Source of the DNA: Dudresnaya verticillata
Lineage: Eukaryota
NCBI GenBank assembly: GCA_977862235.1
Contig: OZ374560.1
Location: forward strand, 1,798,001 to 1,862,000
DNA length: 64,000 bases
Direction of reading: 5' to 3'
Shown one piece after another: positions 22,119 to 64,000 of the stretch; the stretch's first letter is position 1, and each line of letters opens with the position of its first letter. The notes beneath the pieces were generated by a model. The model was given only the letters and a program-made list of their open reading frames with translations, made no database searches and was not told the origin of the DNA. The position numbers were made by a program, and so were the translations under genes.

Positions 22119-22172
22119 TTTCTTGCTTTCGATGATTCAAAACGAGGGTGTTGAATCATCGAAAGCAAGAAA
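22119..22172. repeat. Perfect 22-bp inverted repeat with 10-nt loop
   Basis: TTTCTTGCTTTCGATGATTCAA-aacgagggtg-TTGAATCATCGAAAGCAAGAAA. Confidence 0.9.
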
Positions 22173-32700: not shown

Positions 32701-33317
32701 ACCTTTCCTACTTCAGACATATGAGTAGCATCTAATGTCCCCGAAACGGGCTCTTCTATGTTTTCTCATACACGTCGCTCACCGGACCATTTGTAATGTG
32801 ACCGCCTTCCTCTGAGAGCGTTCCTTGATCCGGTTCAGGCACCTGAGTCCTTCGTGGCCTCCCACTTCCCGCAGGAGATCCTCCAGCGTTTACCCGAGCA
32901 TCTCCTGAATTCGCACGTGCATCACCGGCGTTGCTGTGAGCCCCTCCAGAGCTAGCTCGACTTTCTCCAGCATTAATTTGCGCCCCTCCCTCGTTTTCCC
33001 TTGCTCTACCCGCATTCTGGTGCGAGCCCCCCGCGTTTTCTCTTAGCCCATCCGCATTCGGACGCGCACCGCCCGCATTCGTTCGCGCACCGCCCGAATT
33101 TGAAGGCGCACCACCCGAATTCTGACGAGGCCCCCGCGAATTCGCACACGCTACCTCGGCTTTATCGCGTTGACCACCAGAATTGCGCCTTGAGCCACCT
33201 GCATTCGACCTCGCACCACCTGAATTACGCCTGGCACCACCTGAATTCGCCCATACCCTGCCATAATTTTCCCGCGGCCCACCCGACTCAGGTCGCGGAC
33301 CCCCGCGTACCATTTCT
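26731..33317 (-). mobile_element. Helitron, left copy (lacks own 5' end and terminal hairpin)
   Basis: Reverse complement aligns with 35216-40983 once the solo LTR is removed. Confidence 0.9.
26812..27708. mobile_element. Solo LTR (897 bp), family A, inserted in left Helitron copy
   Basis: TGTGGTTCA...TGCACCACA; TSD TTCTG/GTCTG; empty site (minus-strand ATCTG) present in right copy near 40903; homologous to 7892-8782. Confidence 0.85.
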
Positions 33318-37100: not shown

Positions 37101-40100
37101 AATATCCTCCAGGACAGCGGGACACTTTTCCAAGTCTGGCTACTTCGAACCGTTACGAACATAGAAGATCAGCGTCTTAGATTCCTTGAACGTGAGCAAA
37201 CGGCAAGAATCGTCGAGGAGAGAGAACTGCAAGAAGTTGTGATGGATGATGATGAGACATACCGTGCTGGCCGGCTCTTCCTTCCTGATAACCACATCAA
37301 CTCTCCTTCATACTGGCGGGGGACGTTACTAGACGTGCATGCAATCGTTGCAAGAAGGCACATCCCTTCTCTTCTCGTGACTGTTACGATGAACCCATGG
37401 AGGGAAGAGATGGGCCGGCTAGGCCTTGACATTCAACACCGCAGTACCTTCCAGCCTCATGGAAGCAAGCCCCGCGTCTTCGACCGCCCAGATCTCACTG
37501 CAAGAGTTTACAATCAATTGGCAAACGATGTCATGAGGGAGATACAAGAGAACTCACAAGAGTACTTCGGTCGACGTTGTATCGGTATTGCTTGAAAGCT
37601 GGAGTTCCAAGAAAGGAACACGCCGCACAATCACATGTTGGTATTCTTGGAGGGAGGACTACTGGAGGATTTGGATGAAGTTGACGCCATGATCAGTGCA
37701 GAATTGCCGACTGAGGAAGATGATCCGGAACTCCGAGCTTTAGTCAAGAAGTTGAACATGCATCGGCACTCCCCGTACTGTAGGGGCCATACGCGGGACA
37801 GAAGATGCCGCTTCGGGTACGATCAAAATGTCGTGACTCCCTCCACATACATTGATGAGACATGCAATCGCGTTGTGTATCGGCGGAGGAAAGCGGAAGA
37901 TCTCCGAGTTGTACCTTACAATGCCACGTTAACACGAAGGTACAGTTGTTACATCAATGTAGAACGCACACAAGGCGGCGGAGCGGTCGCATACCTCATG
38001 AAGTATACATTCAAGCCACCCAAGTTGCACGACGTAAGCATAAGAACCGGAGCAGAAGAGGGCAGGGACGGGACACAGAGAAACCCCGCAAGGGACAATA
38101 TCCACAATGAAATTGGACTCCACATGCGTGCGAGAGTGAGGGGTGCAGTAGAGGCGACCTAGTCCCTACTTGAGTTCAGACAGGTCAAGATGAAGCCTAC
38201 TGTTTCTGCATATCAGATACACTTAGAAGGAGAACGAAACATTGTCATCCGTAACCCGAATCTTCCTCGTCAATTGTCAGACTCACCGTTACTGCGCTAC
38301 TTCAAGCGTCCGACATAGTACAGGTCCAAAACCTTTCTCGACTATATGGAAGAGTTTAAGTTCTTTAAGACACTTCCACGAAGCCTTCAGTCCCGGAGTG
38401 GTGACATTCCACGCGACAATGGGCGTCCCAGTCAATATGTGGTAAGAAGAGGGTCCGATGAAGACACTGTAGCACGAATCCGCTTCGTTTCACCAGCCAA
38501 TGTCGAGCTTTTTGCACTCCGAGTGATCGTCATGCACAGGGCTCTCTCCTCCTTCGCAGATGGCAAAGAATTCGAAGGGGCTCGATACGAATCGTTCCGT
38601 GATGCAGCAGTGGCTATGGGTCCCTATGCCGATGGAAATGAGTATGACCGGTCCTTCGATGAAGCAGTGCGAATGCATTCAACTCCTGGAAGCCTGCGCT
38701 TCATGATAGTGACGCTTTACCAGCAGGGAGGGCATCCAAATAGAATGTTAGAGAGGCACATGGACTACTTGATATCCGATATTAACCTGGGCTCTACTGC
38801 TAGCGACAAGGGCGAGCTTATCCGCAGACTCATTGAGATATCCGACCGTCATGGCGGGCATCTACTAAGGCATCACCGCTCATTCCGTTCTTTCGTCAGT
38901 TCTCAGGAACGATCCACGGAGACTGAAAGGGGACAGAACGAGATCAATCGAGCTTCTTCATCTAGGAGTACACGAACACGCCTGGAGGACAAGTACCGTA
39001 CTTTAAACTCGCAACAGAAGCGTGTGTTTGACAGGCTCATGACGAACTTAATGGAACGACGTCAGCAAGACACACTAGGGACAGATGGAAACTTATTCTT
39101 CTTACAAGGACACGCTGGAACAGGGAAGACTTATCTTCTTTCTCTACTACGCGACATGGCACAGGTCAAGGGAATGCACGTGGAGATTACTGCGACTACA
39201 GGAATTGCAGCATCACTGTACTCAGGGAGGCGCACACTCCACAGCTCATTTGGTCTTGGAGTAGATGACAAAGACAGTTCTGAGCGACATGCGAAGCTTT
39301 CAAAGTATGGGCCACGTTCGCAAAGAGCATAGATGCTTCGAAACATGGCGCTTCTCATTGTTGATGAGGCCTCAATGATGTAACGCGTTCTATTTGAGCA
39401 CGTTGACGCAATTCTGAAGGACCTTAGAGTGAGACCGGGACATTCAATGACCGGTGGTGGGGGTACCAGCAGTAGCTCGGATTCTGCACAAGACAAGCCG
39501 CTATTTGGAGGCTTGAGTATCGTGTTTGCCGGAGACTGTCTTCAGCTTCTCCCCGTAGTGCCGTCAAGGAGACTGGAGGAAGATGAACAGGGGACTACAC
39601 GCTACGTTAACGTATCACTTTTGGACGAACTTCCGTGGGTTTCCTCCCTTTGGCCCCGTGTGAATGTCCTCCGCATTACCCAGCAGGTCCGTCAGGCAGA
39701 AGACCAGAGATTCAGTAGAATGTTGATGTCTATCGCGACTGGGAGGTTCCCAGCCACATGCCCGCTTCCTTTTTATTCCACCGGCGATATGACAGAAGCG
39801 TACGAAGGTCTTTGGAAGTGGGATAGAACCGGAAATCCGAGGGATGTTTAACCGAACCGCATGATTGTTTGTCCCACCAACGCGCTCGTCGATGAGCACA
39901 ATGAGGAATGCTTGAAACGATTCCCGGGTACAATGTTCTCACTCAAGTCGGCAACCAGTATTGTTCCGGTCCGACGCAGCGGCAGAAGTTCCAACCCTAT
40001 CAGCAACAATAGTGTGGCAGAAATGACGTACCGGTATATGCCGACAGGGGTTCCGCCGCATGATCTACAACTTAAACTCGGTGTTCCAGTCATGGTTATC

Positions 40101-41019
40101 AGAAACGTTCTTCACCCTCACATTGTCAATGGAGCAATGTTTGTCGTCAAGCGCTACACATGCAGAATGGTTTACGTTGCGAAGATTGGTCAATCTGGAA
40201 GCGAACTGGAATACTTCGCGTTACATCGCATAGACTTTCAGTTTGAATTTCACGGAGTTCGCGTCACGAGAAGGCAGTTCCCTATCCGTCTGGCGTTCAG
40301 CGCTACGGTGCATAAGGCACAAGGACAGACCTTAAGCAGAATGATCGTCGACCTGCGTTCCAACTTCTTCTCTCCAGGGCAGCTATACGTTGCCCTTTCC
40401 CGAGCAAAGAAATCTGGCGATATTCTTCTACTACATAAGGAGGAAGATCGTACATCCGACCACGAACATCCATTCCATAATATGCCTGTTGCCGTCAGCA
40501 ACCCGTTTCTTCCAGAGGCTGTTGACTTTGTTGAAGGCAGACGTGATGGATGATTCTACTACTTAGAAAATCACAGCCTCTTAAAGGCGTCGATAATTCC
40601 TTTCATATCTTAGTGCATCTTGGACGTTCTCTTACAGAACGACGATATGTGTTCTCTTTCTTCTTTTTATTGCATTAAATCGTCTTGACACTTTACATGC
40701 CCTGCCGTGACAGCCTAGTACACAAACACCCTGTCTAAATAGGAGAGTGGAACACCGAGGTAAAACAAACTGTCTAAATGCGAGACAAGCAAACTAAGGC
40801 AACATGGCAAAATGACAAAATGGTACGTCTAGGCAGCCTGTCAAAATGACAAACTGGCAAGTTGTGACCAGGCACCCTGTCAAAATGACAAACTGCCACG
40901 TCCAGATCCCCTGTCAAATGTTCACATCAGAACCATCTGCACACAGAAAACTACTTTGCGAAACTGTAAAGGGCTCCGGGGACACATCGCGGCGCGCCGC
41001 GCCGCGATGGCTTCCCTTG
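34181..41019 (+). mobile_element. Helitron, right copy, apparently with both termini
   Basis: 5' A|TTTGTAGGGGTATGACCGC (shared with the small element); 11-bp GC hairpin at 40985-41009, then CTTG|T; subterminal TGTCAAAATGACA repeats at 40805-40920. Confidence 0.85.
35220..40553 (+). pseudogene. Helitron RepHel (7-aa repeats, CCHC knuckle, HUH-Y2 Rep, PIF1 helicase), disrupted
   Basis: GGARxNA repeats; CSNCEDRSHTARRC; CKYCG..VCCGKRG; EFQERNTPHNHML; YLMKYTFK; GHAGTGKTYL; helicase motifs through GQLYVALSR; several stops. Confidence 0.95.
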
Positions 41020-47400: not shown

Positions 47401-49263
47401 GGGCTTCGGCGCCACCGGCTGACAGCGTGTGCACAACAGTGCACACGTGGCGCAGCTGGTCTTACAGCTGCGCGCGCCACTGCGCACTTCCTTACAGTTC
47501 AGCGGGGCTTCGGCGCCACCGGCTGACAGCGTGCGCACAGCAGTGCACACGAGGCGCAGCTGGTCTTACAGCTGCGCGTGCGTGGCACAGCTGGTCTTAC
47601 AGCTATGCCACAAAAATCCTTGGAAGACGCAAGGAAAGACATTCAGAAGAACGATCAAGGAGAACCCGTCTGGACAGGACTGTTCGCCGCGTACCGTTCC
47701 GATCTCGTGGCACCAGATAATCTCTTGACAGGACTCTAAACTATTATGGTATCAATGCTTCTCAGCCTCCCCACAAAGGAACTCAGATGTGCCACATCGG
47801 AATACAGGCGGACGGAATATGTGCCAGTCTCACTAACAATGGACTTATAAAACAGAAGCGAATATGCAATGAGGATGTGAGAAAATTGAACAGTATGAGC
47901 CTTTTCGGAACATTTTGTGTTTTACTTGTGTCGGCACTGACCTTCACAATATTAGGAGCTTTCATTCGATCAAACCGTACGGAATATTACCGAACGCTAG
48001 AGCTTCTCAAACTTTTCTAGAGGCTTGTGGCATTCACATATTGGTGGTCCGAGCAAGAATTGGATGGGTTTAAGGCCTACGATACAGTCCGCGGTAACAA
48101 TGTGACTTATATATCGGAGCTGAGAGTACGCTCCAAATGGTGGGTGGAAAGGATCGAAAAGCTCTGTACAGAGTTTTAAGAGAAGAGGAAATTGCTGGAT
48201 AAACCGAACTTCCACCGTGTAATTGAACTGTATGAGCACTCCAACTCTGCCTTCGGAAATATTAGAAAGTTTATGGAGTTGGCATTTGAGTGTGCGCACC
48301 AACTTTTGAACCGATGTCTTCAAAGAAGCAATAAGCACAATTTCCACATTTCGGTGGTAGATCATTGTGTGGGAAACGATTGGCAAGGAAGACTAGCAGT
48401 ACTGCTAGCACTTTCTCGTTCCCCTGAAGACGAAATCCGAAAGAAGTGTTTCGTACGAAGGCTTCTGCTCGGAGAAGAAGTACATTTGCTGGACGAGGAG
48501 AAGGATTCCGACCTTCTGGCAAGAGTAGATGCCGCAATGAGTGGTCAAATTAATCGCACACTAGAAAAGAAGATACTGAAGCAAGGAAGAGCTGGTAGCT
48601 CTTCTGTACAGAGGTCATCGAAATAGATATGCAGAAGTCGTACGACAGCGCAGGATGTAGCCCGAGTTGTTTTCCTTCCGGAGAGGGATGTAGAAGAGGC
48701 CGTTACATCAACCTGGAAAGGCCTGAATGCATTCTATCCTTCCACTGAACGACTCAGTCGAGGAGATAGTACTATCCCTGAACTTTATAAGTTGGCCAAA
48801 AGAGTTAGCGTTGGAAGCAATGGCATGAAAATTGGAACTCCCGCCGCCTTTGATTGCATTTACTGCAACATCGTCATTCAAGCATACTGCAGTCCTGAGG
48901 ATATTGGAAGACCCATTCCCATACCATGTATCAGCCCCGATGCGAAAACTTACCTTTTTACCATTTTATGTGCAATAATGGTACCAGATAGTGTGTGGGT
49001 GCTTTGCGTGCGTTGCACACCATCTAGAGATTCTATTCTCCATATAGAAAAAACGTTGAGTACTCAATCGTTTCGTGTTCTACAATTGCATCCCTCGTAC
49101 GAAGGGTTGCTTTGTATCACTTTTGTCAGAATGCCGGGAATTCCGTACGGAACTGTGTATTTGATGCAGGTAAAAGGGAGGTGAGACACTGCAAAACTCT
49201 ACTACAAGGTGGAAAAATGTTCTGCGAAAGGCGCGTTAATGCATACCCGCCGAGAATAGCTTG
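44489..49263 (+). pseudogene. Highly decayed CACTA/EnSpm-like transposase
   Basis: IFIDVVGYVPDYSAL..DVVAHVGNSPCTL (D-x-P/SA..GH..C motif); PDNLLTG; KPNFHRVIELYEH..FGN..ELAFECAHQ; C-terminal YPPRIA*; 5' boundary uncertain. Confidence 0.7.
46671..47612. mobile_element. Solo LTR (942 bp), distant relative of family A
   Basis: TGTGGC...GCCACA termini; perfect TSD AAAAT (46666-46670, 47613-47617); internal ~105-bp tandem duplication. Confidence 0.85.
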
Positions 49264-49870
49264 ACGCTATCCTTAAATATTTATTTCTAGTAAATCCGCT
49301 GCGCGACACTCACTGCGTAGCTGCTTCATTTCATTTAAAGAAATATTTACCTCGGTTCCGTTCCTCGTTACTGCTTTCAGTAACTAAACTTTTGTTCAGC
49401 TGTACAGTTCGGTGAGCTACAAGTGCTACTATCAAAAAAGTACTGAGCCATGGTATTTCAATAAATGTAAAATTGATACCTCTTGTGCTCTGTGCAATTT
49501 AATTCAGAGATGCATATTTGTTGTAGACCAGTACTGGAAGTCGAGCAATACCTATTTTGTAAAAGATTTGTTTTTTATTCACACTGCAGTTCCAGATCAT
49601 TAGAGGTATCGGACGAGAGTTGCAAGGGGGTACGAATTATACCAACAAATAGAGAGTTACGAAAGTACAAGAAAGATGTTCAGAAGAAAAGAAAGCGAGA
49701 GCTCGTACGAGCACAATCATTTATACACGTGCAGAATATAAGTCATACAGACAACGCCTGGTGGTAGCATCATCGAGCTCCACGTGGGCATGGGACCATG
49801 GAATATATTTCAGAAATACAACTCTGGCCCATAGCTGTCCGGTAATCATCGGTACTGACAGAAAGACCCC

Positions 49871-52800
49871 TGTCTGTGGATTATTACGCGACCGTCTGTA
49901 ATTGCGTTACCTGCGCGAAGAACCGGGTACTGATGCGAAAGAACGTGAAGGAGATGAAACTGTTCGCAGCCACCGAGCCTCTCGAGTTTGTGTCCATCGA
50001 TATACTCGGGGAACTCATACGCACTAAGCGGGGGAATAAGTTCCTACTCGTCATAGTGGACCGCTTCTCGAAGCTGGTCCGGACGGTTCCCTTGCGTAAG
50101 ATTACGACATTGGAAATCGCTAAGGCTTTTGTTCGACACTGGGTGTTTGTGTATGGCCCACCCAAGAAGCTGCTGTCCGACAATGGGCCGCAATTTGTAG
50201 CCAAGTTGTTCCAGGCCGTCTGCCGCATCCTAGGGATGGAGAATCTCTTCACCACTACGTATCATCCACAGTGTAAGGGCCAGGCGGAACGATTCAATCG
50301 AACCATCCTCGCCTCCCTCCGTCATTACGTGGCAGAACACCCAAGGGACTGGGATTTGTTCACCTATTCTTTGCCGTTCGCGTACAATACGCAACTGCAT
50401 TCGTCTACACACCTCGCTCCGTTTGAGCTGGTGCTATCTAAGCTCCCGCGACCATTGTCGCTGGAAGCGGAACCGTCGCTTGAAAGCGTGCCCAACGCCG
50501 GGCAATACTACACCAAGTGGCGAACCTAGCTGTCTGCATTGATGGGAACCGCTAAACCGTCGCTCGCGAAAACGCAGGCGCGTTACAAACGGAACTTCGA
50601 TACTCGTCTGAGGAAATCGAAGGATAATATCGCTGTGGGTGACTTCGCATTCCTGCGGAAATAATAATTCGCCCGTGGCGGGAGCACCGATCGCGCAGAG
50701 CGGAAGCAAAAGCTCGCGCCTGTGGCGGATGGACCGTATCGAGTAACTCACGTCAATGACGAGACTTTCATCGTCGACAAAGGGCGTGGGGAACGCGAGC
50801 GTTTATCTCGCGATCGCGTGATATGGGCGCCGACCCCACCAGAGCACGTTACCCCCGCAACCGTACAACCACCGGGACAACCTGAAGGACCTGGGCCCAC
50901 TTCCCCCACGTCAACAGAAGAAGGAGCAGGAACCCAAGCCACGCCACAAGCGGACCCGGCAGGAGGCACAGGGACACCGCGAAGCGCAGAATACTCGCAG
51001 GAGAGAATGAATGCAACGCCGCGAAGTCGTGGGTTGGCAGAGCGCTCTCCCTTTTCCGCCAACCCCGACGACGGTGTTTCGTAATCGGTCTCCGAAGATG
51101 AGGAGGGTCCAGGCATCCGTACGCGAATGGGACACGCAACCTCGGCATCGCCGGCTACCAATGTAGTTCCCGTTTCGAGCGCATCGAATGTTGATGAGAA
51201 AGACCGCGCTAACGCGAAGGACACCGCTGGAAGCGAGGAACCGGTACGTAAAAGCGACGAACCACAACCCGCTACGCAAGCGCTCGGGGCACCGACCCAG
51301 CGCCTTAGGCGATCGACTCGTCGAGTACGGTTTGCAGAACCGGTGCAGACACCCATCGCGCAACGAAGTGAACCATCCAAGGCGTTAGAACGGCAGGGGC
51401 CCAAGTCGATCGCTGCAGGCGAGAAGGAGTACGTTATCGAACGGGTTGAGTCGCACGCACACGCGAAAGACAGCGAGATCCTCTACCGCGTCCAGTGGTT
51501 TGGATACCCCGCTTCAGCGAATACCTGGCAACCAGTCTCCAGTCTACCGCGATCGCACGTCGCGCGATATCACCGTTAGAAGCACACGCGTCTGCCGCCA
51601 AACATCGACGACGCGCAGCGCTAGTAACCCTAGTTAGGGTGGATGCTGGAAGCGAACGGGGAGGTCTAATTCGGCGAAAGTACACGCCACATCCTCATTC
51701 GGGTCGACGCGGAGGTGAAATAGTTACGGACGAAGGGTGCTGTAATCTATCGCATCACGACCGGTTGGGTTTTCGACACGTGAATAGGTAACCCTCTTCG
51801 GAGGGGATCCGTAAGGACAGGACGGCTGACGGTAGTCAGAAGTCGTGGAGGGCGCACGCACCGCACGAAATCGGGCAACAAACGAAATGGACAATTTTAA
51901 TGTTAAAACAATAACGCGAAGGCACCACCAGCCAGGCAGCGCCCAACAACGAGGGTCTGACAAGTGTGTGCCCCGGCACTACGAGCGCCCGCGAGGCAAA
52001 CGCAAGCACGGACGCCACAGACCGTCTCCCACATCCACGCCAGGATGCACCACCCACGGCCAAGTCCGAGACGTGCCACCCTTACGGGTTGCGCGAACAC
52101 AACCGCTCCAAGCAGAACGCTCGCGATCGCCAACGACGTGGTCGCGGTCGCAAAAGGGCGGACCAAACACGAGAGGAAAACCAATCGTCGGAGACGGAGT
52201 TGTCCCTGTTTCGTGCTCGACGCGCTAACCGCGAAAAGACTCCGCCGCTGGGCGTGGCGACCGCGCTCGCGAGTCGCGGGAGGCACACCCAACATGCAAC
52301 GCATAACCGGAAGAGCCTTCACCGACGCTAGGCCAACAGCTCTCACATCTAGGGCAACAAGCCAACCGACCAACGCAACGACCCCCCAACTACATATTTG
52401 AATTTGTAGGCAATCGCTTAACAAGCGGAGTCACGATGTGAACAAAACGACTAAGTCGGACTAACAACATGGGATCCCCCAAAAGGGCCTACTACTGTAG
52501 CGGCAACAAGAACGAGGACGCCGCCAAGGCGACACCGCCCCAAGCATTTACCCAAGCGCTACTACAGCGATCCGAAAACAACGACGACGACACGAACGCA
52601 ACCCGTCGGCTACACATTACTCGCTATCGCAGCGCTCTACACCAGGTGGGACAATAAGCAACTAAGTTTGACAACGGTTACATTTATTCGGACTTCACAA
52701 GCGGGGGTAACCCCCGTGCCCGTATGACTTCTCACTACACCTATGTTGCGAGACGCTGCACTAACCGTCTATGACGTCTGAATCCCTCGCTCACCACCCC

Positions 52801-52922
52801 GCTGCGGGGCAGTCGAAGCGACACCACAAGCGCTCTCGCGTCCGCTAACCGTTCTTAACGATCCGACAACGCTACGGCTTTTTCGTCGCAGACGGCTCAG
52901 AACACTGGTTTCCCGCGTTACA
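49871..52922 (+). mobile_element. Ty3/Gypsy chromovirus 3' fragment with putative LTR
   Basis: Integrase and chromodomain; PPT-like plus TGTA junctions at 51741 and 52496; GTTACA ends at 52682 and 52922; LTR limits uncertain. Confidence 0.75.
49876..51579 (+). pseudogene. Gypsy integrase, long linker and chromodomain, disrupted
   Basis: CVTC, PLEFVSIDILG, IVDRFSK, SDNGPQF, TTYHPQCKGQAERFN, DGPYRV, EYVIERV..YRVQWFGYPASANTWQP. Confidence 0.92.
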
Positions 52923-55165
52923 GAATGTACCTTAAAAAACAGACTGAAATGAAACGCTTCCAAAGTACATGCGTTGGAAAGGGGATCGTCTCCTGAGCAC
53001 GCTGGTGCAAACGGAGTAGAGAACTAAGTAGTAGTTCGCGAGTTATGTTGGTTGGCGTGCTAACCCGGCAGCGGGTCTGAATTAATTAATTTTGCTGTAA
53101 TTTCCGAGATTTTTAATTCGGATTTTGAGGTAACCTACCTCCATGGGCCCCTCACCGCGCAGTATTCGCTGCCCCAACAGTACAGAACTACTCGTCAGTG
53201 CAATACAGCTCACGCCGCTATATGCACGGAATTGTCCTTTGCATTCTGTCGAAGTGCAGTCGAAATGGGCACTTCGCGCTACATCCGGCACACGCATTCT
53301 AGGTCAAAAACTGCTCAGTTACAATATGGCAGCCCTCCCATGAACTAGCGCGTTACAACAGGCTCGCTCATCCGGGTTCCTCTCATGGATTGGGTTCGTC
53401 TCGCGGAACACGCGCAACAAGAACTTGATGGGTGTCATTGGTCGTCTGACTCAAATCCGCTTCCTTTGCGTCTGTCACGGCGTGCAAATTCCATCGCGGT
53501 TGGTGATCATATTTTTGCTCATGTTGATGGTCATGCGCGTCATCATGTAGCAGTACATACAGATAACTGCGAACGATTGAAGAATTCGCTCCAACCACAG
53601 CGTTAGCGGCTGGACCTGATACCGCGAGTAAAAACACCGTATTCAGGCAGTAGGTTGTCTGGTGCCTGCTCGCTAGTAGCTACTATTGACCATCATCTGT
53701 TTCGCAGTGCGCGAATGTTGTACAGGACTTTCAACATAGAATTGGCGGGCTCCGCAAAGCTTGTTGCACTTCGGAGGGCAGACATATTGTAAATGTGAAC
53801 GCCACAGGCTGTGTGGTTCAGTTTGGGTCAGTAGAACGCCCCGTTTACTTTCCATTTCCTGTAACTTTCAACTTCAACAGGTAGAACGGGACATCCGCCC
53901 GCTACTTGCTTAATCAGCTCTTGTCCAGGATTCCCTAATATCAACCTGTCTTATCCAACTACCTGTTGAGAACGAAACCGCTCGGATCAGTCAACTGTCA
54001 ATTGAAGGAAGAGTCCAACATAGCCTGGTGCCGTACATTCCCTCCCTAGTAATGCCCCTCACACGATGATATCGTTATTTGACCACAAGCGTAGCGCCTC
54101 TCCTTGCAATAATCTTCTTATAGCTGTTTATGAACACCGTACTCATCCCTAAGCATATGAATATCCCGCCGATCCTCATCCTCGATTGAAACATATTCAT
54201 CCAAACACGTACTGCTGGGTGTAGTTATCCTTTGAGCCTGAATCTGTTATTCTCGTTTTGCCGCTTAACTAGCTCCTGCAATACAGTTGTGCTACCAGGG
54301 GAAATCCCGGCAAACGTCCCACATCGGGCTGAGCCACCGAAGCAGACACCCAACCCTGTCTTGAATGCTGACAGCCGACGATTTAGAATCAAGCTTTTTG
54401 ATATCTGCGTTGAGGTAGGCATGCCACTGTAGAACGCTTGAGGTTAAATGGGTCCGGATTCCTCTTATTCCCCTACATTCACGCCCACTCGTCCAGGCCG
54501 CCGTTGCGCCCATAAAAGATGCAAGGATTCTCCAGCATCGAGTACAAAGAAAATAAAGGTGCGTTGCTACGCAAGAAGCTGCACGCGTGTAGAGTCATGG
54601 CTTTGCATCGCAGTGTGAATGGGTTTTCAATCTGTTTAAACGTTTCCCGCATTACAATGACTCTCCAAAGCCATGATCCGAATTGTTCCAACGATTTAGT
54701 ACTGTGACTTTTTCAGGGACTCTAAGGAGAGCGAGCGAACCGGAAGGAGGACTAACCTTTCCTGCACTCCTGCAACTATAGTTGGCTATAGCCAGCCCCG
54801 TCTCCAACATCGTCACTCCCTGCAAATATAGACTTTGCACGCTTCATGATAATCGCTGCTGTTGTGGCCAGGGGTCGGGTATTAGCGGGTTTATCAATTG
54901 CTTTCGAGCACCGGGATTCGTCTGGTTAGGCACATATGCGTGTTCTCGTTCTGAAAATATCGGAACCTCCTAGAATCAGGCTGGCAAATCAGGTGGATCC
55001 ACGCCATTTCGCAATATTTCCCAGAAGTTTCACCCGCGCCGGCACCTGCCGTCGCCTCCTCAATGTTATTTCCCGGTGGTATCATCATCTGGAAGGAGAT
55101 CTCCGCGACTCGGAGACTACAACGGTTGGCAGGCTGGACCAGAAATGTAGACATCTTCAGCTGCA

Positions 55166-58143
55166 GTGCATGAATATAATGATGGGAAGGAAATTGTTAC
55201 TCCCCCTACGCGAAGGCGTTTTCAGTTGCTCGACAAAGGGCTGATAGTCGGCACCGCTGAGCCGCTCGCCCCGCCAGAGCCTAGTGCAGCGGACAGCACA
55301 GGGTGCTATTGCACTAGACATGGGCATTATCTGCACGAGGTCGAGGAGGAAGGGCAAACATTGGCGGTCATTTACAAGGTGAAGATAGAAGGAGAATTTG
55401 CTTCGAAGCCCTACCGTTACACCTACAAGGGCGTCGAAGATCTTCCTGCTACTCTTCGCGGTCTTGAGGTAGGAATTCATGTTTGGGATGTGGCGCAGAT
55501 GCGCAACAAACATGCTGCCGCCCGCTGCAGTACTGCAGCAGACACACCTCTCCCCGCGACCCGTCTTCCCGGGGAGCAACCTTCTATGAAAACACCGCCA
55601 AAGAGTCGCCGACGAGGAAAGAGGCTGACTGTTGATTCCCCGCAAACAGCTCCTTCGCCGGTATTGACCGCATCAGCTCTGCAATACACACCTCGAACCA
55701 GACCGCGATGGCGACCTTTACCAGAGGTTTCAAATACAGCTGGTATACCCAGACCGAGTACGAAGGATTCTTCGGAATCAGAAGAATCTGGTGACGAGGC
55801 ATACGTACCGGAGGGTGACGGGGGCGATAAAGAAAGTGCTGAGGATGAGGACGATGCCGAAATAGAACGACCAGTTGAGGCAAACGCGGTGCCCAGCCCT
55901 CCTGGGGAGGGTGCTGCTGCTGTTAGCACAGGGCCGGAAGAGGGGGATGTAGACATAGCACAAGGGCACACCCGGCAGAAGCGAAGTTACAATTATCACA
56001 GCAGGCCGAAAGGAACCCGTTGTGCTCCTTTGATGGCCAGCAAGCGCCGGAAACTGCTCGAAGACCTTGAGAACACAAACATCTCGTCATGGTTATGCTT
56101 TCAGTCAAAACAATGTTTTGCGACAATTGAAAGCACATATATTCAGGAGGAAGCGAGGCGTACGATTGTAATGAACGGAGCAGCTCAGCGGGCATATCTA
56201 CGAAGCCTGTTGGAACCCAACTCTAATATGTACTTCTTCAACGCCAGGCCGGTGTGTTACACGTCTCTGGAACGGGCATTTGGATTTTCAAGGGACTTGC
56301 AGTCGTCAACGAAAGGAACGAGACAGGCCCGAAGGCGGGCCGGCCCCGGAAAGAGCTCGCGAGATGCTTCCACAGACTCTCTTGAACTCATTGTGAGCTT
56401 CTTAGAGAGGTCAGCGGAAGCTACATCTGACGCAATGCCGGACAGAGACGAGCTTCATCTAGCCTTCTTTCGAAAGCAGGCGGTGTACGAGGTCTTTGTG
56501 CGTGAGCTTTCCAAATTGTACCGAGGAAGGACACCTCCGTCTCAGAGCTGCTTTTACACTGTTTGGACTGCACATTGCGCAAGGATCAAAGTGCGCAAAA
56601 CCCACCGATTCGCGAAGTGTGCCGAGTGCAAGAGTGTGAGGGACCAGCTTGCCCACATGACTTTGGGGGGTGCAGACCAGACGGCAACAGAGGGATTGAG
56701 ACAGCGCCGCAGGCGGCATATAGAGATGGTAAGGCAGGAAAGACTCGAGTACCGGAAGAAATGCGACATGGCAAAACTCTCGCCGACAAGGTATTGCTCA
56801 ATGATTATCGATGGTGCAGATCAATCGGCGTATGGTCTGCCGCACTTCCATGTTCGATCGAAAGCCACAACGGGTCATGCGCTGGCAGCAAAGTTAATAG
56901 GAGTACTGGACCATGGTGCTGCAGATCGATTGTCGTTATTAACAATGACTGCCGAGTTCGAATCCGGTGCAAACCATATTGTTGAGGCGTTGCACCGCGT
57001 GTTAGCAACCAAATATGATATAGGGGAGGTCCGGGACACTCTCTTTCTGCAAGGAGACAACTGTACAGTGAAAAAAGAACACGTTCCTACTCGCGTACTT
57101 GGCGTCGCTCGTGTCGTGGGGGGTATTCACTGAAGTGCATATGTCTTTCTTGCCAATCGGGCACACACATGCCGAGACCAAACGTTTAGTTGCACCTCCA
57201 GGAGGCTTCGCGTCCACGACGCGGTGACTATTCAGGACTTGATGGAGGAACTACGCCAATCTTACACACCCGCGCCTATAGTGACGCGCATGCGACACAT
57301 CGCGAACTGGTCCGGGCTCTGCAAACAGGAAAAGTGTACTGGGGGGTTAAGCCTTTCTCCCACTTTCGCTACTTCAAATTGTCCAGATCTGAACTGGACT
57401 CCGGCTCTACTGCAGCTTATTATAAGACGAAGTGTGAGGTACGAGTGGGTTGCAAGGATTCGTGGAAGGCGTTGAAAACAAAGGGACCTCAACAAGGTTT
57501 CTTGCTATTCCCACCCGAGTTGGGAAAGACACCTGCCACTGCGATAATCTCCCCTCCAGGTAAAGAAGAAGTAAGCAAGCGCTTACGCCCAGAGGAGCTG
57601 CGAATCAATGACTCCGCGAAGCTAAAGGAGTTACAAACGTTGCGCGATGAGGTCTTCCGCGATCGTGAGGAGCCTCTGCATTGGGACCTGACAAAGGTAT
57701 TCGAGAAGAAGGGGGTACATAGAAAGTTGGAGCAAGTTGTCGAAAGCGATGGTGAGCTGGAGGAGGACGCAGATAGAGACGCTGAGGAGCACGATGACGC
57801 TGAGCACGAGACTCAGCGTGCTGACTTGACGTATGGTTTCAACCGTTTCGTGGTGCTGAACATTAAAGACAATAATGTGCCTTTCTGGATCGGACAGGTA
57901 CAGGGCTGGAAGAAGGACAGCGCGGGTGTTGTTTGCACCCTGTCAATCAGGTGGTATGAGGTTGGTTCAGGACAGGACGCGTGAGACGGTAAATATCGCC
58001 CTCCTGTCTACGCCAGAACCAAGAAGGCATGGACTGACGATGTTGATGCCGCGCCTGTCCTCGTTGAGTTTGAGAAACTGTCTAATAGATGCCCAACCCA
58101 AGCTGTTAAGAAGAAGATACGAGACTCCCTACAGACATCGTAG
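55166..58143 (+). pseudogene. Sola-like (DUF7869-type) DDD transposase with several frameshifts
   Basis: FAKCAEC; MIIDGADQ; GANHIVEAL; LFLQGDNC/KNTFLLAYLASLV.WGVF.EV.MSFLPIGHTH/DQTFS; joined across frameshifts near 57070, 57175 and 57340. Confidence 0.8.
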
Positions 58144-60239
58144 CACGACAGACCATTAAACTGTTTTCGCTTGCGGTGCATCATTTGGAGTCTTGCACAT
58201 TTCATATCCAAGTGCGCCCTCGAGGTGGCTCAGGTCGGGCAGCTTGCGCATTGCGCCGCTGTTGCATTTGCGGTTGGTGGCCGCGGGCGAGCGCGTGTTG
58301 GGAGCGTGGCGCGTCTCTTCTCACAGTTTGCGAGATAGACGGTAACCGTCTTTGTAGCGTGACACACAAAACTTTAATGCTGCGTAGATAGTGCCAGCAC
58401 ACTTCTCGTTGGCTACACACATATTGTCGTGTAGCACTACGCAACACTTTCTCAACTAAAACCTTGACACGCTCTATTGTATTCAATAGAGACAACTTGT
58501 GTTTTACAACGTGCTCGTTCGGGCAGTGATTCTCAGTCTGCCCTTTCTCCAAAAGTGCATTTCCTGACTGCCGCGAATCCAAGAGGATATATGTAGTTGT
58601 CGAACTCTCCCATCAAATGCCTGTTCGCAGAACGCATCGAAAACCTTCTCAAACGCCATGACATACTTGTCGACACAAAACCACCGCATATGGGGCTCTG
58701 CCGTAATCACACCCATGTGCGTCAATTAGAACCTCTCACTACTGTCCAGGCACGGTCACTTTCTTGCCATCACCGCGCGGGGCCCATGCAGCGCAAACTG
58801 TACCTCTTCGATTAACACATGTAGAGTACATATATCTTCTACTTAGAGGACACCTCAAAAGGTTGGGTTCGTGGTTGCTTAGATTGTTGCTGCGTGCAAC
58901 TTCGTCTTGAACAAGGAAATCTGTTTGTACTGTGCACATCCCCCCGATTGAATCCTTTTGCAACCTCGTTCTCACTGCGACAGCCGCCGAGGAGAGTTTC
59001 TATTTCCTGCCAGTCCTCCCACTGATCCTCGTTCAAGGAGCAAGCTCTCCAAAACGACACGTCATGATTATAATATCCGTGCTTGCGATAGGAAAGCCAA
59101 GCATAATGTTACAGGGCTCACTTGCTTGTCTACAGAAGCGAGCACTGCTGTGCGTGCCACCCACTGGGTGCCTGGCAGGCACTGCGCAGTTGATATCAAC
59201 AACGCTGTGAACCCAGATGACGTGTTTACACTGCCTAATAGGACTGGAATAACACAATGCAGGATGCACGGCATAGGCGTACGCACTTTTTAACGCCGTT
59301 TCGGAAAGAAACCTCGGAAAAACGCACCTACATTTCTAGACGTCGACGCGGTCGTCACTCCTTCGTTTGTAGCGGTATTCGATGCCAATGACGTTGCCAT
59401 CGAAGATGTTGCAGATCATCTCCAGCAGCTATACCAAATGCTTCTACGCTCGTCGTTGGTGGTCCTGATTCTTGATTCGCTTAAGCGCTTCAGCTGAAGC
59501 GCTCTCAGAGCCTTGCAAGTCTGATAGACTAGCCGACTCGGGACGTTTTTCTTCCGTCGGCGTAGTGAGATTAGTGCTTAAAGCTCTTCTTGCGGCGTCG
59601 TTGCCGTGGTAACCCCAGCCTGACAATACCTGGCCCTCGGTTTTCGCAGCTGCCGCATTCTGTTTTGATCGGGAGTCAACGGGCAGTTGACCAGAGGATT
59701 GATGAAGACTTTGACGGCCAACATGCAGCATTACCCGGTTTGCATGGGCTGAATTCAGACGCCCACGTGCGTGCAACGTTTTCCTTAGTCAGCTTGAAGG
59801 GTTAGCGCTCCCTCTCCTCATGCGTCTCGACCAGCTGAACTACATAGACGTATGTATCCTTGCGAGGAGCTCGTAGTGCCACCTTGTACTCTGAGGTACC
59901 CATACACATCAGTTCCATATTAGGCAACACGGAAGCAACGTGGAGGCGTGGGCGCGGCAGCTGTGGGAGCGTATGTCGCGATGATGATGGGAGCGTATTG
60001 CGCACGCGTCTACGCTCGATTAGCGCAGCAGCAGACGCGGCAGATCTCGACAACACCAGGCGGACGTCGACGCTGCGCTGCGACTGCAGCCTGCTCAGGG
60101 CGGGACATACAGCTGAGGGTGTGGGTGTGCTGCGCAGGGGGCGTTTTGGGCAGGGAAGCAGATGCAGCTATTCTGATGTGTGTCATACCGACAGCGCGGC
60201 CGCGTGCCTGCAGCGACGGGACTGTGTGATTCCGAGATG

Positions 60240-60580
60240 GCCGGATAGGTTTCTGCTAATGCGAGCCGCCAGGACCTATCCGGCAATATCGATATTAGTT
60301 TTTAGGTTTTCTCGACCCGGCGACGCAAAAAACTTTCCAACAGGTATTCTGGTTGCGTGCTTACAAATACCTATAAAGGCATTTCTGACGCGCCGACAGC
60401 AAAACCTATTGCAATAGGTTTTGTGAAAGTGATTTGGAAAATAACTATATAGGTATTTCCAGATTCAGTGTAGAAATACCTATTAAACAGATATTCGATC
60501 TCGCGCGCCGTGAAAACCTATTCGTCAATATTGATATTAGTTTTTAGGTTTCTGCAAGTTCGTGCTGTGAAAACATATCC
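60240..60580. repeat. Array of ACCTAT/ATAGGT motifs with palindromes and a ~35-bp direct repeat
   Basis: Perfect 24-bp palindrome CAAAACCTATTGCAATAGGTTTTG at 60400-60423; GCCGGATAGGT/ACCTATCCGGC; CAATAT.GATATTAGTTTTTAGGTTT twice. Confidence 0.85.
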
Positions 60581-60959
60581 GGGGCTCCCGCGGCTCGGTC
60601 GTACACAGTCCGCCGCCTGCCGGCGGTCCTCGCCAGATTTGTGCGTGCACCTCGCGCACCATGCCGCGCACCATCCACACTGCCGCCAGTTCTTCCTGTT
60701 CACGCCGAGGCTATCGTTGCTGACCCCGCGCCGGGTTTAGAGCCGGCGCCCATGTGACGCAGAAACGCTCTCGCATGGCCAAATGTCCTGCGCACAGCGC
60801 ACAGCGCAGGGAGTCGTCCTCTGCAGCAGTATCGTCAAGCACGGATACGGACGCGTGTCCTGTGGTTCGAGCGTGAGAAGAGATGGAAAGAGACAACACA
60901 ACGCAGTTTACATTTCAGTTTCTGGCGAGGCACAGGACCACTCTAAAGATTGCCGATGG

Positions 60960-61244
60960 CTATACGTTTCCGGTATCCCCCCCTCCATCCGAACCGGGGT
61001 TCTGTTCGTTCTGTGCTGGACCATATATTCTGGTAATCGCCCTGTATAGGGCACTGACTTTCCCCCTAAGGCTCCTCAGAGCGTTCACAGCTTGCCTGCC
61101 TTCACCATACACAATCTCTCTCACGGTTTGTGCCACGGCCCGAAGTTGCTCATCGAGATAGTTTGCTCTCGTCTGCAGTTGTCGAACCTGCAGACGGAGG
61201 TCGTCAATCTCGCCTCTCAGCTCCTGGAATGTTTGACGTGTCAT
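60960..61244 (-). CDS. Small coiled-coil protein, unknown function
   Basis: 94-aa ATG ORF with heptads FQELRGEIDDLRLQVRQLQTRANYLDEQL. Confidence 0.5.
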   Translation of the reverse strand: MTRQTFQELRGEIDDLRLQVRQLQTRANYLDEQLRAVAQTVREIVYGEGRQAVNALRSLRGKVSALYRAITRIYGPAQNEQNPGSDGGGDTGNV

Positions 61245-61302
61245 TCTGATTTCTCTTCTAGCCTCTTCTCACTCGGCACATCGGTATGCAGTGCAATGGC
61301 GA

Positions 61303-61749
61303 TCAAACTGGAGGGGGAGGCAAATGTGATTCTGGATCTGAATCCAATTCGATGTCCACCTCTTTTCTGTGTTCAATTCCCAACCTTTCTTCAATTGAAC
61401 GTAGTATGTCCCGAGCCTGCCTGGCAAACCTCATGACCTGTACAACGACCTTTCCCACGCGGTTGAAAACATCGCTATATATGGCATCCAGGCGCAGTCG
61501 TGCGTCATCAATGAACGACCTCATCTCGAGGACCTCAGCCCGAACAGTCTGAACTTCACGCAACATTGTCGTGGGGTTAAGAATCGGAATTCGGTCGCGA
61601 TGTCCATGTGAGGAGTTCACGGGGTATTTCGTTGTCCACGTTCCAGACATTGCAAGGCCATTGCAGAAAAGCCGCACTTGATCTGGAATAAATGCTGTAG
61701 ACGGAGGATTCTGAAAAGCTCGTGCCAGGCGATTATACCCAATATGCAT
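61303..61749 (-). CDS. Small helical/coiled-coil protein, unknown function
   Basis: 148-aa ORF; MLREVQTVRAEVLEMRSFIDDARLRLDAI..ILRSIEERL. Confidence 0.45.
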   Translation of the reverse strand: MHIGYNRLARAFQNPPSTAFIPDQVRLFCNGLAMSGTWTTKYPVNSSHGHRDRIPILNPTTMLREVQTVRAEVLEMRSFIDDARLRLDAIYSDVFNRVGKVVVQVMRFARQARDILRSIEERLGIEHRKEVDIELDSDPESHLPPPPV

Positions 61750-61757
61750 CTCGGAGG

Positions 61758-63923
61758 TTACTCTGACGGTAATATCGTACTACGACGATTCCAACTTGTG
61801 CAAATCCCATGCAAAGAACCAAAAAACGCGGCTATCTCCGTAGCATTCTGTGGGTAGTCATCGCGATGTCCCTGCAATGTCCTGGCATCTTTGCAAGCGG
61901 TGAAGGGATATTCCGGGCAGTCGAACCCAGCATCAACCAGAGCACGTTGATAATTTGCGAAGTTAATGAAACTGCAGAAGATGAAAACCCAGTGACCAGG
62001 TTTAACGACCCTTCGACAGAATTCGATGAATTACTTAATCTCCCCATCGCTGATATAATTGTCGCAAGATGTACCAGCATTCGAACGACTAGGCGGTGTT
62101 CCGTACGGAGGGTCCGTCAGTACGAGGTCGAACAGTGGGCTCGAATCGCTTCGAACGGACTGGTCATACGTCTGCCACCTCATGTGGTGGCAACTGATCC
62201 TCATTGTATTCAGTGCATCGACTTCTTCAGTACCTGGTGTTTCGAGCTTTTCAGACTGTATGGTAGACGCGGACGATCTTGTATGTTTTTCATTCCCTTC
62301 CAGATGGTCATTTGTGTCCTCCCCGGTGTCTCCAGCATGGATACTGGCGGTCCCTTTCTCGTGTTCATGTGTTGTGCCACAGTTGCCATCCTCATTTGGT
62401 GATTCCTGCTCGTTTCCCTGCGGTTCTGAAGGTTTTGTTCCGGAACCAGTGGTACTGTCAAAACATCCCGCGGCGACAGACTTGCAATTCTGTTTATCAA
62501 CAGGTGCCCCAGGTTTTGGTGAAGGGGTGGAATCTCCACAATCATTGCGCTCGGCACTATCACAGTGCAATTCCGACCCTTCCAGAGAGGCATTATCGGG
62601 ACACTGTCCTGAACTATGTGTTGTCTTATTTCCGCCAATGCTCTTAAGCAAGTCGGCATGCTTCTTCTCCTTAACAGCAGCTTCCTGGGGACAGAAATCC
62701 CTGTACAATTCCAGTATAGATGCCACAATGTCCTTGTCATTTCCTATATTCTCCGCAACCTCGTCATCCATCTTCTGTGTATTGAGAAGGTTCGAGTGAA
62801 GCACCTGCATGGACTCTGGCTACTCGTGACTTTCCCGGAGAGCTTCAAACTTACGAACCTCGCGAAGAGTGGCGGTGGCCTTCTGAAACTGTTCCACGGT
62901 GTACCGGTAAGACAGCGGTTTGAAGTTGTGTAAACGGTGCAATTCTCTCAAACGTTATAAATTCGCAATATGTGCTTGTACACCATCCGGTGCTTTCGAC
63001 GCGTTAATGAACACTGTTGCGGACTTGACAGATGTTATATTGATAAACTTGCGGTACACGCGACAGTCCACACTCTTATTGATGTCCTAGTGATCCACAG
63101 TTGTAGATCGAATCGACACCAAATCATCCCTCTCCTCGTTTATAATGTCTCCGATTGTGTCAATCACTGCGTGGTCAAGTCTAAGGACAGTCTGAGCAGT
63201 CTGTTTAACAGTATTGTCCCTGAAATGGTTGCATCCGTCATAGGCTTCAGCAATCCTCGTGGGATTCGGACGTTTTCCGCCATTCCCCGCTGTGAGACGA
63301 TCTGCCTCCTCTCTCAGGCCTCGAAGAGTATCGTAGAAGGTAGTCTCGATGTAGAATGAAGAATCGTGCTTGTCATTCTGGTAACGAGCCTATTGTCGAA
63401 GTGACTGCAATTCATGGCTCCCTCTCAGAACAGTAACAGACCATGAGAAAGATTTCCGCGTCTCGTCATCCTCCTCCCGGCGTTCTGTGACAGCTATAAG
63501 TCTGTGCATCCCGTCCACTACTCCATACCATTTCGCTCGATTGTTTGACATTTCCACGGATTCTTTTTGCGAGTATGACGTTCCGTCTTTCTTCAACTTT
63601 TGTTGGAAGTGCTCAATTACCAAAGATCGAAAGGACCCAGACATTTCAATTACAATGGGAGCGTTAGACCCAGCAACATATCCAATTGTACTGGCTCGAG
63701 GATTGTGGTGGTCCTTGCGCGACACATCAAAGCGCGCCTTCAAACGCTCTACTCCAGACCTCACAATAGGAGGAATGGACATCAATGGAATGCAGGAAGC
63801 GGGGTCTACTCTTGTGTTGACGGAACCATCTATTAAGTCGGCGAATAGAGCTTTTGCGGTGTATGTCGATCGAGGAATCTGTTTAGGTCCAGCACCTCTC
63901 GACTTTCGCTTCCCACCACCCAT
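61758..63923 (-). pseudogene. ParB/Srx-like domain fused to N6A/N4C (beta-class-like) DNA methyltransferase catalytic domain, disrupted
   Basis: APIVI...WYGVVDGMHRLIAV (DGMHR at 63501-63515); FDLVLTDPPYG (DPPY at 62103-62114), then in frame *FIEFCRRVVKPGHWVFIFCS..YPQNATE; one frameshift near 63270 and five internal stops. Confidence 0.8.
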
Positions 63924-64000
63924 TCCGAATATGAAGGTGATTACCTAGATGGCTGTGAAGGATGGTAGAGCGAATTCAAGAACTTAGTCAAACCCCGGAA

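What the first reader, a model, noticed from the sequence alone, without database searches (positions are those of the whole stretch)
61758..63923. ParB-domain / amino-DNA-methyltransferase fusion gene in a eukaryotic transposon landscape
Seen: the separate ORFs 63390-63923 and 62031-62810 join into one ~720-codon minus-strand reading through single stops and one frameshift. It carries a ParB/Srx-type DGxHR motif, then ARYQNDKH, an HTH-like stretch (PTRIAEAYDG..RDNTVKQTAQTVLRL), a linker, DLVLTDPPY and RRVVKPGHWVFIF. I found no FxGxG SAM-binding motif downstream, so the C-terminal half looks deleted. Known: DPPY followed by RvLKPgG is the beta-class N6A/N4C MTase layout; ParB-MTase fusions are typical of phages and prophages; eukaryotic amino-DNA MTases are sporadic and often horizontally acquired (e.g. 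bdelloid N4CMT). Inference: a mobile element carrying its own 6mA/4mC writer with a ParB-like loading module, perhaps for self-marking or evading silencing. This copy is dead, and TE-borne amino-MTases have been reported before, so novelty needs checking.
Basis: partly seen in the sequence, partly recalled or inferred. Interest (0 to 1): 0.9.

Follow-up and report, generated by a model that had tools for sequence, protein, structure and literature searches.

The report
Dead transposon-borne ParB-methylase gene
This is a broken, cut-short copy of a gene joining a predicted ParB-type domain to a bacterial-type DNA methylase; its intact relatives likely travel with a transposase in jumping genes and would mark the element's own DNA, a pairing already described in a brown alga.

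Summary
It is a pseudogene cut off after about residue 700. The SAM-binding half is not found anywhere in the window.

Intact relatives (about 890-1190 aa; 144 clusters at E<=1e-30) have a ParB/Srx fold (Z 10.8) and a complete beta-class methylase (Z 23.7 to CcrM). In three families, exact contig-length matches tie them to DUF7869 transposases (9 matches, null mean 0.3). The window holds such a transposase, broken, on the opposite strand (55217-58134), with an inverted-repeat array between (60245-60578).

This layout is published for the Ectocarpus Sola1-1 transposon (PMC12477816); similar cargo and arrays are described for Bostrychia Plavaka elements. Additions here: a 95-residue domain that sits on either the methylase or the transposase, and loss of the catalytic motif in 35 of 58 full-length members.

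Self-methylation is inferred, not shown. Verdict: new member of a known, untested kind.

The parts
61758..63923 (-). ParB-methylase pseudogene reading frame, 722 codons, five internal stops; homology to intact relatives ends at about 61815
63318..63857 (-). ParB/Srx-fold domain (predicted from relatives), with DGMHR at 63515-63501
   Evidence: family profile iE 1e-56; model of relative P0100 matches PadC Z 10.8, pNOB8 ParB Z 9.1, KorB and Srx Z 8.8
62652..63317 (-). all-helical region: an HTH-like unit, then a family-specific helical domain with an invariant DxR
   Evidence: family profile iE 2e-72; helical, pLDDT mostly above 90 in models; HTH matches only Z 4-5; motif counts
62220..62651 (-). 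unconserved linker, predicted disordered
   Evidence: mean identity 6-18% per 30 residues; pLDDT under 50 for residues 443-513 of P0004
61815..62219 (-). first half of a beta-class amino-methyltransferase with DPPY; the second half (EEK motif, SAM-binding motif I) is missing
60245..60578 (.). array of inverted repeats: half-site AWACCTAT in alternating orientation, seven inverted pairs plus a lone half-site at each end, one perfect 22-bp palindrome at about 60401-60422; candidate ParB binding array
   Evidence: 12 half-sites at <=1 mismatch; best 8-mer count 12 against at most 7 in 60 shuffles; best 6-mer 8 against at most 6 in 300 shuffles; repeat finder
55151..58150 (+). broken DUF7869 transposase-like gene, convergent with the methylase gene
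   Evidence: 39-40% and 37% identical to intact P0184 over two frames, with stops and a frame change near 57343; Pfam DUF7869 E 1.9e-5, 158-168 bits in four relatives
55217..55504 (+). about 95-residue domain at the transposase N-terminus, homologous to the C-terminal domain of many intact ParB-methylases
   Evidence: tblastn E 1e-10 from P0002, P0004 and P0007; profile iE 7e-20
60960..61779 (-). two short ORFs (61303-61779 and 60960-61268) of no known family between the breakpoint and the array; membership in the element is not established
   Evidence: only weak coiled-coil-type Pfam matches

Best explanation
This is a dead, 3'-truncated copy of a ParB-methylase fusion gene that likely belongs to a two-gene DNA transposon together with the broken DUF7869 transposase on the opposite strand; in intact elements the protein is predicted to load on the element's inverted-repeat array through its ParB/HTH half and would add N6-methyladenine to the element's own DNA. 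Shown: the fusion, its decay and truncation, intact relatives with full methylase motifs, the array, the neighbouring transposase, and a domain shared by the two genes. Strongly inferred: physical linkage to the transposase in three related families. Inferred from known families: DNA adenine as substrate (DPPY rather than SPPY), dimeric binding to inverted repeats, and ParB-type nucleotide-gated loading or sliding. Inferred only: the benefit to the element, most likely keeping it transcribed or marking it for its transposase. Odds: dead transposon cargo about 0.9; self-directed 6mA writing in this subfamily about 0.5.
For: Fusion and intact relatives. Methylase fold closest to CcrM, M.BceJIV, M.MboIIA and M1.HpyAVI (Foldseek E 4e-11; Z 23.7-21.8). 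ParB/Srx fold: the top 11 Foldseek ranks shown are ParB or Noc (best E 7e-3), and the top 8 VIA rows (Z 10.8-6.4) are PadC, ParB, KorB, Srx (two), serine kinase, SbnI and Atu1540, with the next row at 5.0. The window copy falls in a group of 11 (support 99/95) in which all keep DPPY and the 10 complete members keep motif I. Linkage: 9 exact contig-length matches among 60 methylase and 55 transposase lengths, in three cluster pairs (5, 3 and 1); jittered null mean 0.30, maximum 4 in 10,000. The shared domain is complementary in 3 of 3 linked pairs. Array statistics. DPPY as the bacterial N6A motif and SPPY as the N4C motif: PMC8885841 passage. Same layout and hypothesis in PMC12477816. Inverted-repeat arrays beside a ParB cargo gene in bioRxiv 10.1101/2025.02.11.637652.
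Against: No activity, binding, expression or methylation data. 35 of 58 full-length members lack a canonical [DNS]PP[YFW] motif while keeping long ORFs, so methylation is dispensable for much of the family. Linkage rests on contig lengths, not on contig sequence; order, strand and spacing in relatives were not seen, and only 9 of 22 methylase contigs of 5.5 kb or more had a match among the transposases looked up. No element ends or target-site duplication were found. The array lies about 1.2 kb past the breakpoint, behind two unassigned ORFs, and was not seen in any second copy, so it may belong to another insertion. The HTH match is weak (Z under 5) and Pfam ParB_N does not hit. ParB evidence comes from models of relatives, not of this copy.
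Confidence: 0.6

Rival explanations
1. The protein works mainly as a DNA-binding scaffold, anti-silencing factor or transposase partner, and the methylase domain is a binding module whose chemistry is incidental.
For: 35 of 58 full-length members lack the catalytic motif, and 24 of those keep a motif I. One group of 24 (SH-aLRT 98 on the N-terminal tree; 75/93 on the methylase tree) has 23 without it. The motif needs 6-7 changes on the trees.
Against: The group holding this copy keeps DPPY in 11 of 11 and motif I in the 10 complete members, although the nearest relatives are only about 37-43% identical to this copy, which points to selection on catalysis.
Confidence: 0.2
2. The enzyme is active but its mark is not self-directed 6mA: it writes 4mC, or methylates host DNA broadly or RNA.
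For: The beta-class fold also covers N4C enzymes (PvuII Z 19.2, rotifer N4CMT Z 19.8) and, more distantly, METTL3 and MTA1 (Z about 14-15). PMC12477816 leaves N4mC or N6mA open.
Against: DPPY rather than SPPY; the four best structural matches include the N6A DNA enzymes CcrM and M.BceJIV; fusion to a ParB-type module suggests local loading (inference).
Confidence: 0.1
3. In this window the methylase remnant, the array and the transposase are chance neighbours from separate insertions.
For: The window is a nest of Gypsy, LINE and Helitron pieces. The two genes are about 3.7 kb apart with unassigned sequence between, whereas in one related family both genes fit on a 5,994-bp contig. No termini were found.
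Against: The window's transposase is close to P0184 (93% coverage), whose length-matched partner P0035 is the nearest row to the window's methylase on the N-terminal tree and among the top blastp hits.
Confidence: 0.08
4. The segment is bacterial or phage DNA (contamination, misassembly or a recent transfer).
For: Both domains are of prokaryotic type, and the gene has no introns.
Against: GC is continuous with the window at 48-54%. No phage record covers 80% of the query and the listed hits cover only the methylase at about 27%. No plasmid matches the N-terminal half. The gene shares a domain with the adjacent DUF7869 transposase, and its neighbours are eukaryotic elements.
Confidence: 0.02

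Closest known systems
ParB-like + N4mC/N6mA methyltransferase accessory gene of Ectocarpus Sola1-1_Ec32 (PMC12477816; passages and supplementary rows seen)
   Same: ParB-like domain plus amino-methylase in one protein of about 1,100 aa, on the strand opposite the transposase of a cut-and-paste element; the same self-binding and self-modification hypothesis.
   Different: The passages read mention no repeat array, no shared transposase domain and no catalytically eroded members. That element is 21.5 kb with 282-bp terminal repeats and a 4-bp target duplication; ends were not found here.
Plavaka accessory genes PAG2 and PAG3 of Bostrychia and other red algae (bioRxiv 10.1101/2025.02.11.637652; section 8 and passages seen)
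   Same: Transposon-borne N6_N4_Mtase and ParB-like domains; tandem arrays of inverted repeats beside the ParB gene; cargo that moves between transposon families.
   Different: There the methylase is fused to SET (PAG2) and ParB to a 2OG oxygenase (PAG3), in separate genes. Here ParB and methylase are fused, no SET or oxygenase hit appears in 57 relatives scanned, and the partner carries DUF7869.
Beta-class DNA amino-methyltransferases CcrM, M.BceJIV, M.MboIIA, M1.HpyAVI; rotifer N4CMT
   Same: Fold and motif order, with the catalytic motif before the SAM-binding motif.
   Different: About 15-21% identity; no ParB module; N4CMT has SPPY.
ParB-linked eukaryotic N6A methylases in Iyer, Zhang and Aravind (PMC4738411; passages and one part of the main text seen)
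   Same: Eukaryotic N6A methylases related to phage ParB-terminase loci; one chlorophyte/chytrid family is fused to a ParB-type HTH.
   Different: That family is placed in group 2 (M.EcoKI/M.TaqI type) and is described with the HTH only. No red-algal or transposon-borne ParB/Srx fusion appears in the passages read.
Phage and prophage ParB_N + N6_N4_Mtase fusions (recalled)
   Same: Domain order.
   Different: Only the methylase part matches phage proteins, at about 27%. The N-terminal module matches viral ParB proteins only by fold (best E 5.6e-3) and has about 230 extra helical residues.

Membership tests
beta-class DNA amino-methyltransferase | catalytic [DNS]PP[YFW] motif N-terminal to the SAM-binding motif | tested here: met
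   DPPY then D-x-Y-x-G in intact close relatives; DPPY present in the window copy
beta-class DNA amino-methyltransferase | SAM-binding motif I present in this copy | tested here: not met
   the copy ends before it, and no match is found in six frames of the window; met in 46 of 58 full-length relatives
beta-class DNA amino-methyltransferase | permuted Rossmann fold | tested here: met
   model of relative P0004: Z 23.7, rmsd 2.9, 229 aligned to CcrM; Foldseek E 4e-11
beta-class DNA amino-methyltransferase | methylates adenine N6 or cytosine N4 in DNA | not testable with these tools
   needs an assay
ParB/Srx superfamily | ParB/Srx fold | tested here: met
   model of relative P0100 (pLDDT 93): Z 10.8, rmsd 2.7, 97 aligned to PadC; first row outside the ParB/Srx-type block at Z 5.0; top Foldseek rows are ParB or Noc but none reaches E 0.001
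ParB/Srx superfamily | GxxR nucleotide-binding motif (motif recalled) | tested here: met
   DGMHR in this copy; DGxHR in 21 of 54 full-length relatives; G in 60 of 61 and R in 34 of 61 rows
ParB/Srx superfamily | profile match to Pfam ParB_N | tested here: inconclusive
   no Pfam ParB_N hit; weak hits to DndB (E 5e-4), PHROG 1033 ParB-like (E 0.015-0.027) and DGQHR (E 0.069)
partition-type ParB CTPase clamp | HTH after the ParB domain | tested here: inconclusive
   model residues 181-248 match TetR-type and other HTH units only at Z about 4-5
partition-type ParB CTPase clamp | CTP binding, dimer clamp and binding to a palindromic site | not testable with these tools
   an inverted-repeat array exists but binding was not tested
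Sola1-type element with ParB-methylase cargo (Sola1-1_Ec32 kind) | ParB + amino-methylase gene on the strand opposite the transposase | tested here: met
   description
Sola1-type element with ParB-methylase cargo (Sola1-1_Ec32 kind) | transposase homologous to Sola1 | not testable with these tools
   no Sola reference sequence or profile was available; that DUF7869 motifs resemble Sola is recalled; Asp 535, 538, 658 and 660 are invariant in 26 relatives
Sola1-type element with ParB-methylase cargo (Sola1-1_Ec32 kind) | terminal inverted repeats and a 4-bp target duplication | tested here: inconclusive
   none found between 51000 and 64000; the gene starts 77 bp from the window edge, so one end likely lies outside
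Plavaka PAG2/PAG3 cassette | methylase fused to SET; ParB fused to 2OG oxygenase | tested here: not met
   no SET or oxygenase hit in 8 plus 49 relatives; ParB is fused to the methylase
Plavaka PAG2/PAG3 cassette | tandem inverted-repeat array beside the ParB gene | tested here: met
   60245-60578
Plavaka PAG2/PAG3 cassette | EnSpm/Plavaka transposase | tested here: inconclusive
   the four relatives scanned hit DUF7869 as their only family above cut-off; no Plavaka reference was compared
phage ParB-methylase fusion | sequence homology over both domains in a prokaryotic context | tested here: not met
   neighbours are eukaryotic elements
TnpA-associated domain (DUF8039 / Transposase_23; resemblance recalled) for the shared 95-residue domain | Pfam match | tested here: inconclusive
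   no such hit for 11 proteins, 9 of which carry the domain; no usable Atlas hit; the domain was not folded alone

The most novel reading that the evidence does not exclude
A eukaryotic transposon has repurposed a bacterial partition clamp as an epigenetic writer. The ParB half loads at a parS-like array inside the element, slides, and spreads 6mA over the element. A 95-residue domain kept at one copy per element, on either the methylase or the transposase, couples this mark to transposition. Catalytically dead sister lineages act as readers or decoys.
Probability: 0.2. Interest if true: 0.8.

Novelty: new member of a known kind. Interest (0 to 1): 0.42.

Why it matters
Transposons that mark their own DNA are barely documented: the Bostrychia preprint names VANDAL as the only known case. 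Both algal papers propose this role for ParB/methylase cargo without testing it in the passages read. This locus is dead, but it leads to what a test needs: intact natural proteins with full catalytic motifs, their likely partner transposases, a candidate binding array, and natural catalytically eroded controls. It may also bear on the 66 N6_N4_Mtase genes reported in Asparagopsis (PMC12115072); that link was not tested.

Tried and rejected
Alternative genetic code or a live gene: rejected. TAG aligns with L (15 of 16 relatives) at codon 178 and with W (16 of 16) at codon 368; TAA aligns mostly with Y at codon 323 and with mixed residues at codon 631; the gene is also truncated.

Insertion splitting the gene, or an inversion placing its 3' half upstream of the transposase: no second half is found in the window.

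Co-evolution of the ParB HR and DPPY motifs: Fisher p 4e-4 on 54 rows does not survive correction for kinship (4 independent pairs, not significant), so it was dropped.

Genomic context of relatives: pattern scans confirmed nothing in metagenome contigs, viral contigs or prokaryote genomes. These are insensitive, so the blanks are not evidence. No whole genome is held. No sequencing run was listed.

Fold of the shared domain: no usable Atlas hit, and the whole-protein structure search was filled by methylases. No homodimer prediction was obtained.

Other blanks: no Pfam family in 58150-60231 (three minus frames) or 52900-55150 (six frames); no Rfam hit and no long tandem repeat in 52000-64000; the transposase alignment has no solved relative.

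Literature: DUF7869 appears in 0 papers. Searches listed no paper whose title or abstract start describes the shared domain or the eroded lineages; only listings were seen for most. Bao 2009, Yuan and Wessler 2011 and Iyer 2011 were not held. The Bostrychia supplements were not seen; its Table 6 may already list such elements.

The host was not identified. A florideophyte red alga is my guess from the element mix, GC and recalled literature.

Full report
1. Observation. The minus strand from ATG 63923 to TAA 61758 is one frame of 722 codons with five internal stops. Read with X at the stops, the protein gives one Pfam hit, N6_N4_Mtase at residues 599-657, E 1.9e-4, below the curated cut-off. 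The window is eukaryotic repeat DNA: Gypsy-type ORFs, a LINE reverse transcriptase, two inverted Helitron copies, and no step in GC at the gene. No whole genome is held and the host was not identified; a red seaweed is my guess.

2. The family. A protein search found 8 relatives, 5 of them covering 92-97% of the query at 35-41% identity. The full-length ones continue past the point where the window copy stops, through an EEK motif, a D-x-Y-x-G SAM-binding motif, a linker and a final domain of about 95 residues; 6 of the 8 pass the N6_N4_Mtase cut-off. An exhaustive search with P0004 gave 144 clusters at E<=1e-30 and 436 at E<=1e-10 (the best 150 were listed). Of 182 sequences examined, near-duplicates and fragments included, 63 carry both N-terminal parts and both methylase halves in one ORF. 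Of 49 long relatives, 47 hit N6_N4_Mtase at E<=0.01, and none hit SET, an oxygenase or ParB_N. No source names these proteins usefully.

3. The copy is dead. Homology ends near residue 700, at 61824-61815, and no second half is found in the window. The stops align with different conserved residues, which rules out a changed genetic code.

4. Folds, from models of relatives. P0004 folded at pLDDT 84.5 and pTM 0.78 with a disordered middle linker; the N-terminal fragment P0100 folded at 93.2 and 0.90. The methylase matches CcrM, M.BceJIV, M.MboIIA and M1.HpyAVI. The first 175 residues match PadC (Z 10.8), pNOB8 ParB (9.1), KorB and sulfiredoxin (8.8), with the first row outside this block at 5.0. 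Foldseek ranks ParB and Noc first but none at E<=0.001; viral ParB-like proteins head the viral library at E 5.6e-3. The HTH-like part matches only at Z 4-5. The ParB call is therefore sound at the level of fold and weak at the level of sequence.

5. The partner gene. At 55217-58134 on the plus strand lies a broken DUF7869 gene, 37-40% identical to the intact P0184. Its relatives have invariant aspartates, as a DDD/E transposase would; that it is Sola1 is recalled, not tested. Contigs of relatives could not be fetched, but the cluster tables give contig lengths. Five of the 6 contigs of methylase cluster P0003 have an exact length and source match in transposase cluster P0186; all 3 contigs of transposase cluster P0185 match methylase cluster P0238; and P0035 matches P0184. 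That is 9 matches among 60 and 55 distinct lengths, against a null mean of 0.30 and a maximum of 4 in 10,000 trials. Caveats: members of a cluster are near-copies, so this is three independent cases; the P0238 look-up was chosen after its first match was seen; only the longest contig per protein is shown; and 13 of 22 long methylase contigs had no match among the transposases looked up.

6. A domain shared by the two genes. The last domain of intact methylases matches the start of the window's transposase ORF (E 1e-10). It is found in 2 of 54 transposase sequences (P0183, P0184) and in the window's. In the three linked pairs it occurs once per pair: on the methylase where the transposase lacks it (P0003/P0186, P0244/P0185) and on the transposase where the methylase lacks it (P0035/P0184). 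Three pairs are few, and many methylases lack the domain with partner unknown. Its family is unassigned.

7. The repeat array. At 60245-60578, half-sites AWACCTAT alternate in orientation and form seven inverted pairs, the central five starting 35-39 bp apart. Windows of 400 bp over the array hold 8-12 half-sites; all others hold 4 or fewer. With the best word chosen afresh in each shuffle, the observed 12 compares with at most 7 in 60 shuffles. The region was picked after it was seen. That it belongs to this element is inferred from position alone.

8. Catalytic erosion. Of 58 full-length relatives, 23 keep [DNS]PP[YFW] and 46 keep motif I. One group of 24 has lost the catalytic motif in 23 members. 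The window copy lies in a group of 11 (99/95) that all keep DPPY. Fragments were left out of these trees, and the trees are unrooted.

9. Mechanism. Most likely, in an intact element the protein binds the inverted half-sites as a dimer through its HTH region, is loaded or held by the ParB domain, and methylates adenines nearby, keeping the element active or marking it for the transposase. Steps shown: anatomy, folds, motifs, the array. Steps inferred: linkage (strong), adenine target (from DPPY, PMC8885841 passage), array binding, and purpose. Rivals are a non-catalytic scaffold (0.2), another substrate (0.1), chance neighbours (0.08) and contamination (0.02).

10. What is known. [quoted passage not shown] The Bostrychia preprint describes methylase-SET and ParB-oxygenase cargo with inverted-repeat arrays (section 8). 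PMC4738411 lists other ParB-linked eukaryotic methylases. PMC12115072 counts 66 N6_N4_Mtase genes in Asparagopsis (passage). PMC6431247 mentions enlarged Chondrus EnSpm families (passage). PMC5751038 and PMC3985635 were read in passages for Sola definitions without a usable result. Earlier notes of this scan report similar dead or eroded fusions in other genomes; they are unchecked leads.

11. Verdict. A real, dead member of a published but experimentally untested kind of transposon cargo. The shared domain, the array beside a fused ParB-methylase and the catalytically eroded lineages were not found in the searches listed under Tried and rejected, and they make the published hypothesis easier to test. 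Interest 0.42.

Noticed in passing
window 27710-33252 and 35344-40906: Two inverted Helitron copies, 94% identical over 5.6 kb, with Pif1 helicase ORFs.
   Followed up: no
window 7892-8788 and 26806-27708: A 0.9-kb inverted duplicate (86%) rich in ATCCGG/CGGATC words, abutting one Helitron copy; a second short-word inverted-repeat cluster like the array studied here.
   Followed up: no
window 8998-9755 and 49003-49761: A 760-bp direct repeat (93%) 40 kb apart, and 15139-15250 matches 49759-49870; likely one LTR split by the LINE at about 9800-15100, or nested insertions.
   Followed up: no
window 18550-18680: A cluster of GCAATA/TATTGC words in both orientations; another small inverted-repeat array.
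   Followed up: no
window 19635-22354: Several long palindromes (46-143 bp), possibly miniature elements or hairpin ends.
   Followed up: no
window 58200-60170, minus strand: Protein-like fragments in changing frames starting just past the array; possibly a third decayed cargo gene. No Pfam family.
   Followed up: partly
window 60960-61779, minus strand: Two short ORFs, the second coiled-coil-like, with no relative among the proteins fetched by then.
   Followed up: partly
window 57810-58134, plus strand; P0183-P0186 C-termini: The transposases end in a conserved aromatic-rich domain (FWxGQ..WYEV..GKYRP) outside the DUF7869 match; it looks like a small beta-barrel reader domain (recalled resemblance, not tested).
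   Followed up: no
P0005, P0006, P0238, P0239, P0049 and their clusters: Several natural records are split near residue 500-555 into N-terminal and methylase halves while cluster mates are full length, so other copies are decaying too.
   Followed up: partly
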